Shown here: in pieces, positions 35,331 to 39,261 of the stretch | Position numbering within the stretch: position 1 is the stretch's first letter | How the letters are laid out: each line of letters begins with the position of its first letter | Sequence record: SRR31156797_2750 | DNA length: 64,000 nt | Direction: 5' to 3' (one strand) | Program-made: the position numbers and the translations under genes | The notes under the pieces: model-generated | What the model was told of the DNA's origin: nothing | The model's input: only the letters and a program-made list of their open reading frames with translations | Databases searched by the model: none

Positions 35331-36860
35331 TTAACGCCCGGCATGCTTGATGCCGAGAATGTCGAGTTCAGTGTCGGAAATACCCACACCGCGAAGCTTA
35401 TCACGGTTGCCGCGTAGGGATTCAATTGAGTTTAGTCCCATGCCGCCAAGCATTTCTTCGATTTCATGGCCCCAAGCCCGAATGAGGTTGGTCAATTTTT
35501 TTGCCGCGATATCCGGGTTCTGACGTTTGGACAGCTTGGGATCGTTAGTGGCGATGCCCCATGGACATTTACCGGTGTAACAACGTCCGCAAATGGTACA
35601 ACCGACAGCAATCAGGGTCGCTGTACCGATGTAGACAGCGTCAGCGCCAAGAGCGATGGCCTTGACCACATCTCCGGCACATCTAATACCACCCGCTGCA
35701 ACGATGGAGACATTGTTGCGGATTCCTTCGTCGCGAAGACGTTGGTCAACCTGTGCCAAAGCCAGCTCAATGGGAATACCGACGTTGTCTCGAATCATGG
35801 CTGGTGCCGCGCCTGTTCCGCCTCGCATACCGTCAACGGTAATAATATCTGCACCAGCCCGGGCAATACCGGAGGCGATAGCAGCAACATTATGTACCGC
35901 GGCAATTTTGACAGAAACCGGGACCTTGTATTCGGAGGCCTCTTTTAATGCGTAAATGAGCTGAAGCAGGTCTTCGATGGAATATATATCGTGATGCGGT
36001 GCCGGAGAAATTGCGTCTGAACCAATGGGGACCATTCGCGTTTCTGACACCATGTCATTGATTTTTTCACCGGGCAGATGACCGCCAATACCAGGCTTTG
36101 CGCCCTGCCCTACTTTGATTTCAATACCTGCACCAGCTTTGAGATAGTCAAGATGTACGCCGAAACGACCGGACGCTACCTGCACGATGGTGTTTTTACC
36201 ATATTTGTATAATGACTTGTGTAAACCGCCTTCACCTGTGTTGTAAGCAGTGCCGGTTGCTGTGGCAGCTCGAGCCATTGCACGGTGAAGGTTGAAGTTG
36301 ATGGCACCAAAGCTCATGGCAGCGAACATGATTGGTATATCAAGTTCAAGCTGCGGTGTAAGTTTGGTATTCAGCTTGGGCTTGCCGGTCTTTTTATCTG
36401 TTGTAATATCCAACTTTCTGGGCTTCGCGCCAAGAAATGTTTTGAGTTCCATGGGTTCGCGCAGTGGATCAATGGAGGGATTGGTGACCTGACTGGCGTC
36501 GAGCAACATGCGATCCCAGTATACGGGAATATCCACGGGAGAGCCCATTCCGGCTAGAAGAACACCACCAGTGTCAGCCTGTTTATATATATTCTGTAAG
36601 AATACGGGACGCCACAGATTGTTGGTTCTGAAGTCGGAAGGCTTGTTAACAATGTTTAGGGCAGCCGTGGGGCACAAGGCCTCACAACGATGACAGCCAA
36701 TACACTTGGTGTTGTCGTGCATGACTTTTTGTCGGGCCTCATCCCAATAATGTGCTTCATATGAACATTGGCGGACACAGACCTTGCAATTGATGCACAG
36801 GTCTTTGTCCCGTTCAATACAAAACTCATGGTAATTTTTGTTGATGGGCTGAAAAAGCAA
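35331..36860 (-). CDS. Archaeal-type glutamate synthase FMN subunit with N-terminal 2x[4Fe-4S] domain
   Basis: Two CxxCxxCxxxC motifs, AMSFGA, NTGEGG, QVASGRFGV, EIKVGQGAKPGIGGHLPGEK, SPAPHHDIYSIEDL, GCTICGRCYTGKCPWGIAT. TTG 36860 after SD AGAGG. Confidence 0.92.
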   Translation of the reverse strand: MLFQPINKNYHEFCIERDKDLCINCKVCVRQCSYEAHYWDEARQKVMHDNTKCIGCHRCEALCPTAALNIVNKPSDFRTNNLWRPVFLQNIYKQADTGGVLLAGMGSPVDIPVYWDRMLLDASQVTNPSIDPLREPMELKTFLGAKPRKLDITTDKKTGKPKLNTKLTPQLELDIPIMFAAMSFGAINFNLHRAMARAATATGTAYNTGEGGLHKSLYKYGKNTIVQVASGRFGVHLDYLKAGAGIEIKVGQGAKPGIGGHLPGEKINDMVSETRMVPIGSDAISPAPHHDIYSIEDLLQLIYALKEASEYKVPVSVKIAAVHNVAAIASGIARAGADIITVDGMRGGTGAAPAMIRDNVGIPIELALAQVDQRLRDEGIRNNVSIVAAGGIRCAGDVVKAIALGADAVYIGTATLIAVGCTICGRCYTGKCPWGIATNDPKLSKRQNPDIAAKKLTNLIRAWGHEIEEMLGGMGLNSIESLRGNRDKLRGVGISDTELDILGIKHAGR

Positions 36861-37137
36861 GACTGATACCTCTTTACGTTTGTTGCCAAAAAAGTCATCT
36901 CGCATTCAAGATGATTGGAACTTGGCCTTAAACTTTTCACAATTCGGGGAATATTGAGAGTCCTCCGAAGAGAAAATAGAAAAACACAAGTACTATTACC
37001 CTGTCAAGAGAAGTTTTAACCATCTGTATTTATTGGTTTTGTAAATAAATGACAAAGTTGAAAACAGGCTAAAAGAGTCTGAAATAGCTTAAAAGCTGCA
37101 AAAAAAGCAGCTTAATATGTGCAGATCCTTCGCCTCC

Positions 37138-37166
37138 TTGACTTTGCGAGCGTCTAACCGTAAGAA
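37138..37166 (+). promoter_or_regulatory. Putative sigma70 promoter of the leader-symporter transcript
   Basis: TTGACT-17 nt-TAAGAA, the same pattern as the adk and dapL candidate promoters. Confidence 0.55.
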
Positions 37167-37173
37167 GTAAGCC

Positions 37174-37263
37174 ATGAACACGTACCAAAACCGCTTTAGC
37201 TTCTTTTCCTTTTTTAGCTTTCGCTTTTTTAGAAGCGCCTGCGGTCTTGGGGTGTACGTGTAA
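37174..37263 (+). CDS. Phenylalanine-rich attenuator leader peptide (29 aa)
   Basis: Hand translation MNTYQNRFSFFSFFSFRFFRSACGLGVYV*; 8 Phe within codons 8-19; followed by antiterminator and terminator. Confidence 0.85.
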   Translation: MNTYQNRFSFFSFFSFRFFRSACGLGVYV

Positions 37264-37304
37264 CAACTAATTTTACATGACATCCACAACAAGGGCCGTA
37301 GGCG
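37236..37304 (+). promoter_or_regulatory. Antiterminator hairpin of the attenuator
   Basis: 37236-37248 pairs with 37292-37304 (13 pairs, 3 G-U); 37250-37263 pairs with 37273-37285. Confidence 0.8.
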
Positions 37305-37328
37305 ACAAGCTTACGGCCCTTTTCTCTT
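37291..37328 (+). terminator. Attenuator terminator
   Basis: aagggccgtaggc gacaa gcttacggccctt then ttctctt; lies upstream of, not after, the structural genes. Confidence 0.85.
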
Positions 37329-37376
37329 GTGCCGCAAGCTTGATGCTACGGCCCGAAACAACGAGGGGCATCCGTT

Positions 37377-37523
37377 ATGATGTTGGGTTTCGGGAGTGTT
37401 GAGATCGCATTGGCGTTTTGGCTGAGCATTGGTGCGACTATTTTGTGTGTAGTTTACGGAATTGTGAATTGGAACAATTCTGGCGAGCCTACAAAGATCG
37501 TAAAATTCGGGGAGGATCGGTAA
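37377..37523 (+). CDS. Small single-TM symporter accessory protein (48 aa)
   Basis: MMLGFGSVEIALAFWLSIGATILCVVYGIVNWNNSGEPTKIVKFGEDR*; SD GAGGGG; its stop abuts the symporter ATG (TAAATG). Below the ORF-track size cutoff. Confidence 0.85.
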   Translation: MMLGFGSVEIALAFWLSIGATILCVVYGIVNWNNSGEPTKIVKFGEDR

Positions 37524-39131
37524 ATGGAAGGTAAAATCCTCGGAATTATTATCTATTTATGTGGCATATTTTATCTAGGGTATCGTGCCTGGAAAAACAC
37601 AAAACAATCTACGGACTATATGCTTGCAGGTCGTGGCATGAATCCTTTTGTCCTTGCCATGTCTTACGGTGCGACTTTTGTTTCAACTTCAGCCATTATT
37701 GGCTTTGGCGGAGTGTCCGGCATGTTTGGCATGTCTTTGCTCTGGCTAACTTTTTTGACCATATTTGTCGGTATTTTCATCGCCATGGTCTTTTTTGGTA
37801 AACGCACACGGCGCATGGGGCTGGCTCTTGATTCTCACACGTTCCCTGAACTTTTGGGAAGACGTTATAAATCAAAATTCATTCAACAATTTTCAGGTGT
37901 TGTCATATTTGTATTTATTCCGGTATACGCTGCCGCTGTTCTTATCGGTATTTGTCGGATGCTTGAGGTGGCATTTCCCGCTGTGAGTTATGGGGCATGG
38001 TTGCTTATTGTGACAGCCATTGTTGCCATGTATGTCATTACCGGCGGTCTCAAAGCCGTCATGTACACAGACGCCTTTCAGGGGACGATTATGGCTGCGA
38101 TGATGCTTATCTTAATTGTTACCACCTACTCACTTCTTGGTGGTATGACTGAAGCTCATCAGGCATTGACTGATATGATTAATTTGGTACCTGCCAAATT
38201 GCAGCAAGGTGGCCTCGTCGGCTGGACAACCGGACCGCATTTGCAGTCTCCAATAGGTCTGACCATCTATACTACTATTATATATGGTGTCGGTATTGGT
38301 GTTTTGGCGCAGCCACAGTTGGCCATTCGATTCATGACTGTACCGTCTGACCGCGAGTTAAACCGAGCTGTTGCCATCGGCGGTGTCTTCATTCTTCTGA
38401 TGACCGGTGTCGCATTTCTTGCGGGCGCATTGTCCAATGTTGTTTTCTATAAGGAGTTCGGCAAGATATCTATTGTCATGGCCGGCGGTAATTTTGATAA
38501 AATTATCCCTCTTTATATCGACAAGATTATGCCGGGTTGGTTTTCAGGTCTTTTCCTTGTCGCCATGTTTGCGGCAGCCATGTCCACCATGAGCTCCCAG
38601 TATCATGTAGGCGGCACTTCGCTGTCCCGTGATTTTTTGGAACAGCACATATCCATTGGCAATGCTGGATCTTCAATGAAACTTAATCGGTTGGGAGTAA
38701 CTGTTGCTGTTATCGCTACCCTGATTTGGGCGTGGCTTCTACCCGGTGGAGTTATTGCGCGTGCCACGGCCTTTTTCTTTGGCCTGTGTGCGGCATCCTT
38801 TCTGCCCATCTATGTTTTGGGGCTTTATTGGAAAGGTATGACTAAAATCGGGGCCAAAATATCCATGGTCGGTGGTTTCGTTTTCTCCATGTTCTGGCTT
38901 TTGTTCATTCACCTTAAGGAAGCCGCACCAATTGGATTGTGTCAGGCTTTGACCGGACAAGTGACCTTGGTGGCAAACACGTCAAAAGGTTCGTGGATCT
39001 GGTTGCTTCAATGGGTTGACCCCAATGTTGTCGCCCTGCCCGTTTCGTTAGCTTTGGCAGTCGGCATAAGTCTTGCCACCCGACGAATGGAACAAAAACA
39101 TCTTGATCTCTGCTGGGACGGTCTATGCTAA
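37524..39131 (+). CDS. Sodium:solute symporter (SSS/PutP family)
   Basis: DYMLAGR, SYGATFVSTSAIIG, ITGGLKAVMYTDAFQG, AQPQLAIRF, FAAAMSTMSS, GLYWK; about 13 TM segments. Confidence 0.93.
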   Translation: MEGKILGIIIYLCGIFYLGYRAWKNTKQSTDYMLAGRGMNPFVLAMSYGATFVSTSAIIGFGGVSGMFGMSLLWLTFLTIFVGIFIAMVFFGKRTRRMGLALDSHTFPELLGRRYKSKFIQQFSGVVIFVFIPVYAAAVLIGICRMLEVAFPAVSYGAWLLIVTAIVAMYVITGGLKAVMYTDAFQGTIMAAMMLILIVTTYSLLGGMTEAHQALTDMINLVPAKLQQGGLVGWTTGPHLQSPIGLTIYTTIIYGVGIGVLAQPQLAIRFMTVPSDRELNRAVAIGGVFILLMTGVAFLAGALSNVVFYKEFGKISIVMAGGNFDKIIPLYIDKIMPGWFSGLFLVAMFAAAMSTMSSQYHVGGTSLSRDFLEQHISIGNAGSSMKLNRLGVTVAVIATLIWAWLLPGGVIARATAFFFGLCAASFLPIYVLGLYWKGMTKIGAKISMVGGFVFSMFWLLFIHLKEAAPIGLCQALTGQVTLVANTSKGSWIWLLQWVDPNVVALPVSLALAVGISLATRRMEQKHLDLCWDGLC

Positions 39132-39156: not shown

Positions 39157-39191
39157 GGGTGCCGGAAGAATCAAGCCGGCACCCTTTTTTT
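39157..39191 (+). terminator. Terminator after the symporter
   Basis: gggtgccgg...ccggcaccc ttttttt. Confidence 0.85.
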
Positions 39192-39261
39192 ATGAGTAAT
39201 TGACAGCCGCACGCATTGCGCACATAAAAAGCCATTCACGAACAAAAGGATTGGATAAAAT

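What the first reader, a model, noticed from the sequence alone, without database searches (positions are those of the whole stretch)
37138..37328. Unannotated phenylalanine-sensing ribosomal attenuator controlling a transporter operon
Seen in sequence: a 29-codon ORF (37174-37263, MNTYQNRFSFFSFFSFRFFRSACGLGVYV) with 8 Phe in 12 consecutive codons. Its 3' third (37236-37263) pairs with 37273-37304 as a long antiterminator, and 37291-37303 alternatively pairs with 37309-37321 as a terminator with a U-rich tail. The two structures share 37292-37303, so they are mutually exclusive. Established: this is the logic of the enterobacterial pheL/pheM and trpL attenuators. Inference: a ribosome stalled on Phe codons leaves segment 2 free and allows read-through, while a ribosome reaching the stop covers segment 2 and causes termination. 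I know of no described Phe leader-peptide attenuator in sulfate reducers or in front of an SSS transporter.
Basis: partly seen in the sequence, partly recalled or inferred. Interest (0 to 1): 0.92.

Follow-up and report, generated by a model that had tools for sequence, protein, structure and literature searches.

The report
Phenylalanine leader-peptide attenuator before a symporter
A short phenylalanine-rich reading frame followed by two competing RNA hairpins sits in front of a two-gene sodium/solute transporter operon; it is conserved in related sulfate reducers and most likely raises transporter expression when phenylalanine runs short, by a textbook mechanism in a new place.

Summary
A 29-codon uORF (37174-37263) has 8 Phe in 12 codons. 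A 13-bp intrinsic terminator (37291-37321) follows it. A long alternative hairpin (37236-37263 with 37273-37304) uses the terminator's 5' arm.

The element is conserved. Of 23 orthologous symporter loci with enough upstream DNA, 20 carry a uORF with at least 6 Phe in 12 codons. Phe codons change only synonymously, neighbouring codons vary freely, and the stop position is fixed.

A paralogous Phe leader with the same segment 2 and terminator design precedes aroA' (ADH synthase, the aromatic-pathway entry enzyme) in the same genomes. In Halodesulfovibrio the orthologous symporter has a Tyr-rich leader instead. This points to ribosome-mediated attenuation that senses aromatic aminoacyl-tRNA, and to an aromatic amino-acid importer.

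The start codon lies 35-39 nt after the -35 box in 41 of 44 leaders, mostly without a Shine-Dalgarno motif. The leader mRNA is therefore probably leaderless.

Three caveats apply. There are no expression data. Antiterminator covariation is not significant. Equilibrium folds always favour the terminator, so the switch must be kinetic.

Verdict: a real, well-supported new member of a known kind, of moderate interest.

The parts
37138..37143 (+). -35 box TTGACT
   Evidence: TTGAC is invariant in alignment A1. It lies 35-39 nt before the uORF ATG in 41 of 44 leaders.
37161..37166 (+). -10-like hexamer TAAGAA, 17 nt after the -35 box and 7 nt before the ATG
   Evidence: The TA at hexamer positions 1-2 is nearly invariant. 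The strict promoter scan did not call it because position 6 is A. Its function is inferred.
37174..37263 (+). Leader peptide uORF, 29 codons plus TAA. It has no Shine-Dalgarno motif and is probably translated from a leaderless mRNA.
37195..37230 (+). Regulatory Phe codon run: 8 Phe in codons 8-19 (7 TTT, 1 TTC)
   Evidence: Phe positions are conserved with TTT/TTC exchanges, while spacer codons 9 and 15 vary.
37190..37204 (+). Segment 1, which pairs with 37231-37245 (11 pairs in two helices)
   Evidence: It appears in the MFE of the whole leader. 90% of cells are paired in A1, but covariation is not significant.
37236..37248 (+). Segment 2 (CGCCTGCGGTCTT), codons 21-25 of the uORF, complementary to the terminator's 5' arm
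37249..37285 (+). Upper stem-loop of the antiterminator. It contains the stop codon (37261-37263).
   Evidence: The sequence is variable between species.
37291..37304 (+). Segment 3, which is both the terminator 5' arm and the antiterminator 3' arm
37309..37329 (+). Segment 4 (terminator 3' arm, 37309-37321) and U-rich tail
   Evidence: Six pairs show changes on both sides, a count that 0 of 500 shuffles reach.
37377..37523 (+). Symporter small accessory protein, 48 aa
   Evidence: NCBIfam NF045580, E 8e-15.
37524..39131 (+). Sodium:solute symporter family transporter, 535 aa, substrate unknown
   Evidence: PF00474, E 7e-50. It scores below every equivalog cut-off in NCBIfam.
39157..39191 (+). 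Intrinsic terminator that ends the two-gene operon: GGGTGCCGG, a 10-nt loop, CCGGCACCC, then T7
   Evidence: Sequence and fold. The scan missed it because it allows loops of at most 8 nt.

Best explanation
This is a ribosome-mediated (leader-peptide) transcription attenuator that reads the supply of Phe-tRNA(Phe). It controls a two-gene operon for a sodium:solute-family symporter and its small accessory subunit.

Transcription starts at or within a base or two of the AUG of a 29-codon leader, so the mRNA is leaderless (inferred). When Phe-tRNA is scarce, the ribosome stalls within codons 8-18. Segment 2 (37236-37248) stays free and pairs with segment 3 (37291-37304) as it emerges. The long antiterminator hairpin forms, the 3:4 terminator cannot form, and RNA polymerase reads into the transporter genes. 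When Phe-tRNA is plentiful, the ribosome runs through codons 19-29 to the stop. It masks segment 2 and then the upper stem, segment 3 pairs with segment 4, and transcription stops near 37323-37329.

The choice is kinetic (co-transcriptional), not thermodynamic.

The same design of leader controls aroA', the entry enzyme of aromatic biosynthesis, in the same genomes. In Halodesulfovibrio the orthologous symporter has a Tyr-rich leader. The transporter is therefore most likely an importer of aromatic amino acids (Phe, and probably Tyr).

Shown here: the sequence features, their conservation and the pairing potential. Inferred: translation of the uORF, the start site, stalling, the 3' end and the transporter's substrate.
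For: Anatomy.

Conservation:
- 22 of 25 genomes of the genus have the symporter at 67% identity or more.
- 20 of the 23 loci with 700 nt of upstream DNA have a uORF with at least 6 Phe in 12 codons. One more (L022) has 4 Phe plus 4 Tyr, and 2 (L023, L024) have none.

Codon-level pattern in 18 leaders of 29 codons:
- Codons 2-5 vary freely.
- Phe positions are kept with TTT/TTC exchanges.
- Spacer codons 9 and 15 vary (G/S/R/N and S/G/C/D).
- Codons 20-27 are almost fixed at the nucleotide level.
- The stop position is fixed while its identity varies (TAA 10, TAG 6, TGA 2).

Terminator: 94.8% of cells are paired, and 6 of 13 pairs change on both sides, a count that 0 of 500 shuffles reach.

Antiterminator:
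- 92% of cells are paired, against 38-45% when the partner columns are slid.
- In 33 of 35 leaders the best complement of the terminator's 5' arm anywhere between the ATG and the terminator starts 5-11 nt after the Phe run, at -16 to -33 kcal/mol.
- In 29 of 35 leaders, at least 8 nt of that arm pair with the uORF 3' part in the MFE of the transcript cut before segment 4.

Single-sequence covariations seen:
- L025: segment 3 A>C is matched by T>G in both segment 2 and segment 4.
- L012: segment 3 C>T is matched by segment 4 G>A, while the segment 2 G still pairs.

Ribosome-mask folds of the transcript ending at 37308 give 10-12 of 13 antiterminator pairs with the A site on Phe codons 8-18, and 0 of 13 on codons 19-28.

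Regulon logic:
- A paralogous leader (MHNITTRFFFFFSFYFKNACGLGVH plus a terminator) lies directly upstream of ADH synthase/aroA' in G001.
- One search found the same arrangement in seven further loci (L037-L040, L047, L062, L063). L052, L053 and L056 add three more by ORF N-terminus, with a Pfam DeoC/LacD aldolase match for L053 and L056.
- Halodesulfovibrio symporter orthologues carry MNTINHHMNSYFYAYYGYRVIKTCGSVECV. Their aroA' carries a Phe/Tyr/Trp leader.

Promoter geometry: the ATG lies 35-39 nt after TTGAC in 41 of 44 leaders (36 nt in 26 of them). An SD-like motif is present in only 7 of those 41.
Against: - There is no transcript or ribosome data. No RNA run holds the locus.
- Antiterminator covariation is not significant. 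Only 2 pairs change on both sides, a count that 76 of 500 shuffles reach, because segment 2 is nearly invariant.
- Covariation of the 1:2 helix is not significant either.
- At equilibrium the full-length leader forms the terminator (13 of 13 pairs) under every ribosome position tried, including stalls on Phe codons.
- For the truncated transcript the model also allows 9 of 13 antiterminator pairs with a ribosome at the stop codon, and 11 of 13 with no ribosome at all. The classical 'superattenuation' is therefore not predicted, and the replete-state outcome rests on steric and kinetic arguments.
- The -10-like hexamer ends in A, not T, and the strict scan does not call a promoter here.
- The transporter's substrate is unknown. 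It falls below all NCBIfam equivalog cut-offs, and no informative solved relative was found.
- Two orthologous loci (L023, L024) and L078 lack a leader.
- The related genomes are kin, so the counts overstate independent support.
Confidence: 0.85

Rival explanations
1. The region is a constitutive small RNA, or a leader that ends at the hairpin and is not controlled by translation. On this reading the T-rich tract is an RNA feature and the open frame is incidental.
For: The hairpin is a strong stand-alone terminator of -23.5 kcal/mol. At equilibrium it always forms. Terminated attenuator RNAs can act in trans in other bacteria, such as rnTrpL of Sinorhizobium (PMC6614838, abstract seen in the listing).
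Against: - The ATG is in frame with the Phe run and at a fixed distance from the promoter in 41 of 44 leaders.
- Changes in the T-rich tract are the synonymous TTT/TTC type, and the stop position is fixed.
- In Halodesulfovibrio the tract is replaced by TAT/TAC codons for another aromatic amino acid. That makes sense only at the codon level.
- A trans-acting role could coexist with attenuation and would not replace it.
Confidence: 0.05
2. The uORF encodes a functional small hydrophobic protein, for example a third membrane subunit of the transporter, and the hairpin merely lowers downstream expression.
For: The C-terminal motif (S/N)ACGLGV is conserved in many leaders. The operon already encodes one very small accessory protein.
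Against: - The conserved C-terminal codons are fixed at the nucleotide level and are exactly the stretch complementary to the terminator arm.
- The N-terminus is free to vary.
- The same leader precedes a soluble biosynthetic enzyme gene, aroA'.
- The peptide changes to a Tyr-rich or mixed aromatic sequence in orthologues.
Confidence: 0.03
3. The element is an attenuator, but it senses general translation or elongation capacity, or a bound factor, rather than Phe-tRNA specifically.
For: Poly-Phe/UUU tracts can be slow or slippery to translate in general. No experiment ties the response to Phe. With no ribosome on the RNA, the truncated transcript still forms the antiterminator.
Against: The regulatory codons track aromatic amino acids across paralogous and orthologous leaders, and one target is the aromatic-pathway entry enzyme. 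No Rfam riboswitch or T-box matches.
Confidence: 0.05

Closest known systems
Enterobacterial pheL-pheA and pheM-pheST attenuators (and trpL, hisL)
   Same: Both have a short leader ORF with a run of Phe codons, an intrinsic terminator, and an antiterminator that shares the terminator's 5' arm. The position of the ribosome decides which hairpin forms. (Mechanism as summarised in PMC11802643 section 7 and PMC3082878 abstract, both seen as passages or listing.)
   Different: - There is no sequence relationship and no Rfam hit.
- The target is a transporter rather than a biosynthetic enzyme or a tRNA synthetase.
- The leader has no Shine-Dalgarno motif and is probably leaderless.
- The stop codon lies inside the upper antiterminator stem.
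- The 1:2 hairpin competes only weakly, so no superattenuation is predicted.
Corynebacterium glutamicum aroR leader before aroF (DAHP synthase)
   Same: It is a leader peptide with aromatic codons (Phe-Tyr-Phe) that controls the entry enzyme of the aromatic pathway and responds to Phe limitation (PMC11802643 section 7, passage read). It is the functional analogue of the paralogous aroA' leader found here.
   Different: It is from a different phylum, a different entry enzyme (DAHP synthase versus ADH synthase) and has far fewer regulatory codons. No transporter target is mentioned in the passages I read.
Polycysteine leaderless short ORFs of mycobacteria
   Same: They are leaderless short ORFs with runs of one amino acid's codons that act as amino-acid-responsive attenuators of downstream operon genes (bioRxiv 10.1101/834739, title and abstract seen in the listing).
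   Different: They occur in Actinobacteria, sense Cys rather than Phe, and I did not read the mechanism details. Leaderless status here is inferred from promoter spacing only.
Putative attenuator ahead of the Desulfovibrio vulgaris aroA' supraoperon
   Same: It is in the same bacterial family and has the same first gene as the paralogous leader found here. It is listed as a predicted attenuator in PMC1173090 Table 7 (passages read).
   Different: That listing gives terminator/antiterminator predictions from a website. The passages I read mention neither a leader peptide nor a transporter.

Membership tests
Ribosome-mediated (leader-peptide) transcription attenuators | Short upstream ORF with a cluster of codons for one amino acid | tested here: met
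   8 Phe in 12 codons. The feature is unique in the window. It is conserved in 20 of 23 orthologous loci.
Ribosome-mediated (leader-peptide) transcription attenuators | Intrinsic terminator between the uORF and the first structural gene | tested here: met
   13-bp stem plus U-rich tail. Covariation is seen in 6 of 13 pairs, a count that 0 of 500 shuffles reach.
Ribosome-mediated (leader-peptide) transcription attenuators | Alternative antiterminator that uses the terminator's 5' arm and a segment inside or just after the uORF, placed so that a stalled ribosome leaves it free | tested here: met
   33 of 35; 29 of 35. Pairing is conserved (92% of cells), but covariation is not significant.
Ribosome-mediated (leader-peptide) transcription attenuators | Upstream 1:2 hairpin that sequesters segment 2 when the leader is not translated | tested here: inconclusive
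   The hairpin is present and 90% paired. It is predicted to lose to the antiterminator in the truncated transcript.
Ribosome-mediated (leader-peptide) transcription attenuators | Controlled genes serve the supply of the sensed amino acid | tested here: inconclusive
   The symporter's substrate is unknown. The paralogous leader controls aroA', and orthologues carry Tyr-rich leaders.
Ribosome-mediated (leader-peptide) transcription attenuators | The uORF is translated and read-through rises on starvation for the amino acid | not testable with these tools
   No RNA runs hold the locus.
Any curated Rfam leader, riboswitch or T-box family | Match to the family covariance model at its gathering score | tested here: not met
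   There were only 3 hits at E 1.3-5, all far below the gathering scores and from unrelated families.
Leaderless leader ORFs (as in mycobacteria and corynebacteria) | Transcription starts at the A of the AUG, with no Shine-Dalgarno motif | tested here: inconclusive
   The -35 / 17-18 nt / TAnnnA / 6-7 nt / ATG geometry holds in 41 of 44 leaders, and 34 of those 41 lack an SD-like motif. No 5'-end data exist.

The most novel reading that the evidence does not exclude
The two-gene operon encodes a so far unrecognised two-subunit SSS-family importer for aromatic amino acids. Its leader is translated from a leaderless mRNA, and its codon content has been retuned between genera: Phe in Pseudodesulfovibrio, Tyr in Halodesulfovibrio, and a Phe/Tyr mix in L022. 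Together with the aroA' leaders this forms a family-wide aromatic attenuation regulon in Desulfovibrionaceae. It would be a rare case of leaderless ribosome-mediated attenuation outside Actinobacteria.
Probability: 0.45. Interest if true: 0.6.

Novelty: new member of a known kind. Interest (0 to 1): 0.5.

Why it matters
It gives a concrete, testable functional lead (Phe/Tyr uptake) for an uncharacterised symporter-plus-accessory-subunit family. It extends classical leader-peptide attenuation to Desulfovibrionaceae, with both a transporter and the archaeal-type aromatic-pathway entry enzyme as targets. It also offers a natural series (Phe, Tyr, mixed aromatic; leaderless versus SD-led) for studying how attenuators are duplicated, moved and retuned. 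The mechanism itself is textbook, so a specialist would be interested rather than surprised.

Tried and rejected
- **Minus strand.** ORFs 37069-37266 and 37089-37292 (65 and 67 aa, Lys-rich) were considered. I dropped them because the substitution pattern fits the plus-strand frame.
- **Rfam.** Nothing relevant was found.
- **RNA evidence.** No RNA holder was listed. The 4 runs, all from one study, are held as contigs only.
- **Literature.** I searched for a Desulfovibrio Phe leader, for the transporter's substrate and for the accessory protein name. The only related item is the 2005 listing for the D. vulgaris aroA' supraoperon. The DvH fitness paper reports no gene specific for Phe utilisation (PMC10102598, passages). 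Supplementary tables were closed and might hold fitness data for orthologues.
- **Other Phe leaders in G001.** The pattern (TTY)5 gave 21 hits. Apart from the symporter and aroA' sites, the 11 regions inspected showed no ATG-plus-terminator design. Leaders with fewer than 5 consecutive Phe codons would be missed.
- **Cognate versus non-cognate duplex test.** Across 24 distinct leaders the means were -17.2 and -15.7 kcal/mol, and 6 of 10000 permutations matched the cognate mean. The test is weak: ranks were mostly unimpressive, two rows (L021, L042x) had mis-set segments, and the sequences are kin.
- **Exact look-up of the leader peptides in the protein collection.** They are not present.
- **Solved structures.** Only distant SGLT-type relatives were found.
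- **Earlier findings.** None were recorded for this genome.

Full report
**1. The observation**

On the plus strand an ATG at 37174 opens a 29-codon frame, MNTYQNRFSFFSFFSFRFFRSACGLGVYV, that ends with TAA at 37261-37263. Eight of codons 8-19 are Phe (7 TTT, 1 TTC).

A hairpin at 37291-37321 has 13 pairs (8 G-C), a 5-nt loop and a U-rich tail. When the RNA is cut before the hairpin's 3' arm (37225-37306), it folds into one long hairpin. In it 37236-37263 pairs with 37273-37304 at -37.0 kcal/mol, z = -6.05, and 0 of 200 shuffles fold as well. The two structures compete for 37293-37303.

The whole leader, 37138-37335, folds at -64.2 kcal/mol with z = -3.9. That fold shows a 1:2 hairpin, a middle hairpin and the terminator.

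This is the only place in the window, in six frames, with at least 7 Phe in 12 codons. Base composition predicts about 4e-4 such places per window. No Rfam family matches.

**2. Surroundings**

The element lies in a divergent intergenic region. Upstream, on the minus strand, are:
- a glutamate-synthase-like Fe-S flavoprotein (35331-36905);
- a ferredoxin;
- a pyridine-nucleotide-disulphide oxidoreductase.

Downstream on the plus strand are a 48-aa 'symporter small accessory protein' (NF045580, E 8e-15) and a 535-aa sodium:solute symporter. The symporter matches PF00474 at E 7e-50 but falls below every NCBIfam equivalog cut-off, so its substrate is unknown.

A strong intrinsic terminator follows the symporter: 39157-39184 plus T7. 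A TTGACA-type promoter then precedes dut. The attenuated unit is therefore two genes. It does not include dut, argD or prmA.

**3. Conservation**

Record titles place the close relatives in Pseudodesulfovibrio. Of 25 genomes of the genus, 22 have the symporter at 67% identity or more.

Of 25 orthologous loci, 23 had 700 nt of upstream DNA; L018 and L020 are cut short. Among those 23:
- 20 carry a uORF with at least 6 Phe in 12 codons;
- L022 carries a mixed Phe/Tyr leader;
- L023 and L024, from another genus, carry none.

Eighteen leaders have exactly 29 codons, and their codon table is what a regulatory leader peptide predicts:
- Codons 2-5 are free to change the amino acid.
- The Phe positions are kept and differ only by TTT/TTC.
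- The spacer codons between them vary (G/S/R/N and S/G/C/D).
- Codons 20-27 are nearly fixed at the nucleotide level.
- The stop codon keeps its place while changing identity (TAA 10, TAG 6, TGA 2).

**4. Structures across species**

On a 22-sequence alignment (A1), the three helices behave as follows.

| Helix | Cells paired | Pairs changed on both sides | Shuffles reaching that count |
|---|---|---|---|
| Terminator (3:4) | 94.8% | 6 of 13 | 0 of 500 |
| Antiterminator lower helix (2:3) | 92% (38-45% when slid) | 2 of 13 | 76 of 500 |
| 1:2 helix | 90% | 3 of 11 | 60 of 500 |

Covariation therefore supports the terminator but does not support the antiterminator or the 1:2 helix on its own. 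Segment 2 hardly varies, and many of its partners are U-G pairs that tolerate purine changes in segment 3.

Individual cases are nevertheless telling. In L025, a segment 3 A>C is matched by T>G in both segment 2 and segment 4. In L012, a segment 3 C>T is matched by G>A in segment 4, while the segment 2 G still pairs.

Two alignment-free checks agree with the design:
- In 33 of 35 leaders the best complement of the terminator's 5' arm anywhere between the ATG and the terminator starts 5-11 nt after the Phe run.
- In 29 of 35 leaders, at least 8 nt of that arm pair with the uORF's 3' part in the MFE of the transcript cut before segment 4.

**5. A regulon, not a single site**

A DNA search of 201 genomes of the family found a second, paralogous leader in the same genomes. 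In G001 it reads MHNITTRFFFFFSFYFKNACGLGVH, is followed by a terminator, and lies directly upstream of 2-amino-3,7-dideoxy-D-threo-hept-6-ulosonate synthase (aroA'; TIGR01949, E 1e-121). This enzyme is the entry step of the alternative aromatic pathway.

The same arrangement occurs in L037-L040, L047, L062 and L063. By ORF N-terminus it also occurs in L052, L053 and L056, and Pfam confirms the aldolase family for L053 and L056. Two genomes of another genus have a Phe-rich uORF before a distant SSS paralogue (L045, L050).

In Halodesulfovibrio the orthologous symporter (65-67% identity) is preceded by MNTINHHMNSYFYAYYGYRVIKTCGSVECV. This leader has five Tyr and one Phe, with the same segment 2 and terminator design. 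The aroA' gene of the same genomes has a leader with NFYFWFFFSY, which contains all three aromatic amino acids.

A T-rich tract replaced by TAT/TAC codons makes sense only if the codons are read. It also points to aromatic amino acids as the common theme of the symporter and aroA'.

**6. Promoter and start**

In 41 of 44 leaders the ATG lies 35-39 nt after the T of a TTGAC box: 36 nt in 26 leaders, 37 in 8, 35 in 6 and 39 in 1. A TAnnnA hexamer sits 6-7 nt before the ATG. Only 7 of the 41 have an SD-like motif. The base before the ATG is usually a pyrimidine.

I infer that transcription starts at or next to the A of the AUG, so the leader peptide would be translated from a leaderless mRNA. This is inference. 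The -10-like hexamer ends in A, and the strict scan does not call it. The Halodesulfovibrio aroA' leader is different, with an SD and a promoter further upstream.

**7. How it most likely works**

I masked a 28-nt ribosome footprint at successive A-site codons and folded the RNA.

With the transcript ending at 37308, before segment 4 exists:
- The antiterminator forms (10-12 of 13 pairs) when the A site is on Phe codons 8-18.
- It cannot form (0 of 13) on codons 19-28.
- At the stop codon the model still allows 9 of 13 pairs, but these would have to close around the ribosome. I judge that sterically and kinetically unlikely beside the local 3:4 hairpin.
- With no ribosome the antiterminator also forms (11 of 13), so classical superattenuation is not predicted.

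With the full-length RNA the terminator forms in every case. The decision must therefore be made co-transcriptionally, as in the classical systems.

**8. Comparison with known systems and novelty**

The logic is that of pheL, pheM and trpL. The closest functional analogue of the aroA' leader is aroR of Corynebacterium glutamicum (PMC11802643, passages). Leaderless amino-acid-sensing short ORFs are described in mycobacteria (10.1101/834739, abstract).

A putative attenuator before the D. vulgaris aroA' supraoperon was listed in 2005 (PMC1173090, passages). My searches found nothing on a Phe leader before an SSS transporter, or on this transporter's substrate.

I file the element as a new member of a known kind. 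The mechanism is ordinary. The target, the taxon, the probable leaderless start and the Phe-to-Tyr retuning are new details.

**9. Verdict**

The finding is real and correctly interpreted.

| Claim | Confidence |
|---|---|
| Phe-sensing ribosome-mediated attenuator | about 0.85 |
| Leaderless start | about 0.6 |
| Aromatic amino-acid importer | about 0.6 |

Interest is 0.5.

Noticed in passing
L061:846-923 (G001:C1, about 305 kb from the symporter locus): A second, paralogous Phe-rich leader (MHNITTRFFFFFSFYFKNACGLGVH) with its own terminator lies directly upstream of ADH synthase/aroA'. It has the same -35 / -10 / ATG spacing.
   Followed up: yes
L071, L074, L075 and L076, about 330-250 nt upstream of the symporter operon: Halodesulfovibrio orthologues of the symporter have a Tyr-rich leader (YFYAYYGY) instead of a Phe-rich one, with the same segment 2 and terminator design.
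   Followed up: partly
L090 and L091, about 380-230 nt upstream of aroA': The Halodesulfovibrio aroA' leader contains Phe, Tyr and Trp codons (NFYFWFFFSY). Unlike the others, it has a Shine-Dalgarno motif and a promoter further upstream.
   Followed up: partly
L045:1484-1576 and L050:1478-1558: A Phe-rich uORF (FFFFSFSFF) precedes a distant SSS-family paralogue (24% identity to the window's symporter) in another genus. Complementarity to its terminator arm is weak (-7 to -11 kcal/mol).
   Followed up: partly
window 37091-37119: A perfect 7-bp inverted repeat, AAGCTGC-A7-GCAGCTT, sits in the divergent intergenic region upstream of the promoter. On the minus strand it reads as a hairpin with a T7 loop. 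Its role is unknown.
   Followed up: no
window 39157-39245: A strong intrinsic terminator follows the symporter gene, and a TTGACA-17-CATAAA promoter-like site follows it before dut. dut, argD and prmA are therefore outside the attenuated unit.
   Followed up: partly
L084 (G001:C1:2626516-2626539, minus strand): A (TTC)8 microsatellite lies in what looks like an intergenic stretch. It has no start codon or terminator design.
   Followed up: no
L023, L024 and L078: Orthologous symporter operons in two other genera have no leader uORF or terminator upstream, so the attenuator is not universal for this transporter.
   Followed up: partly
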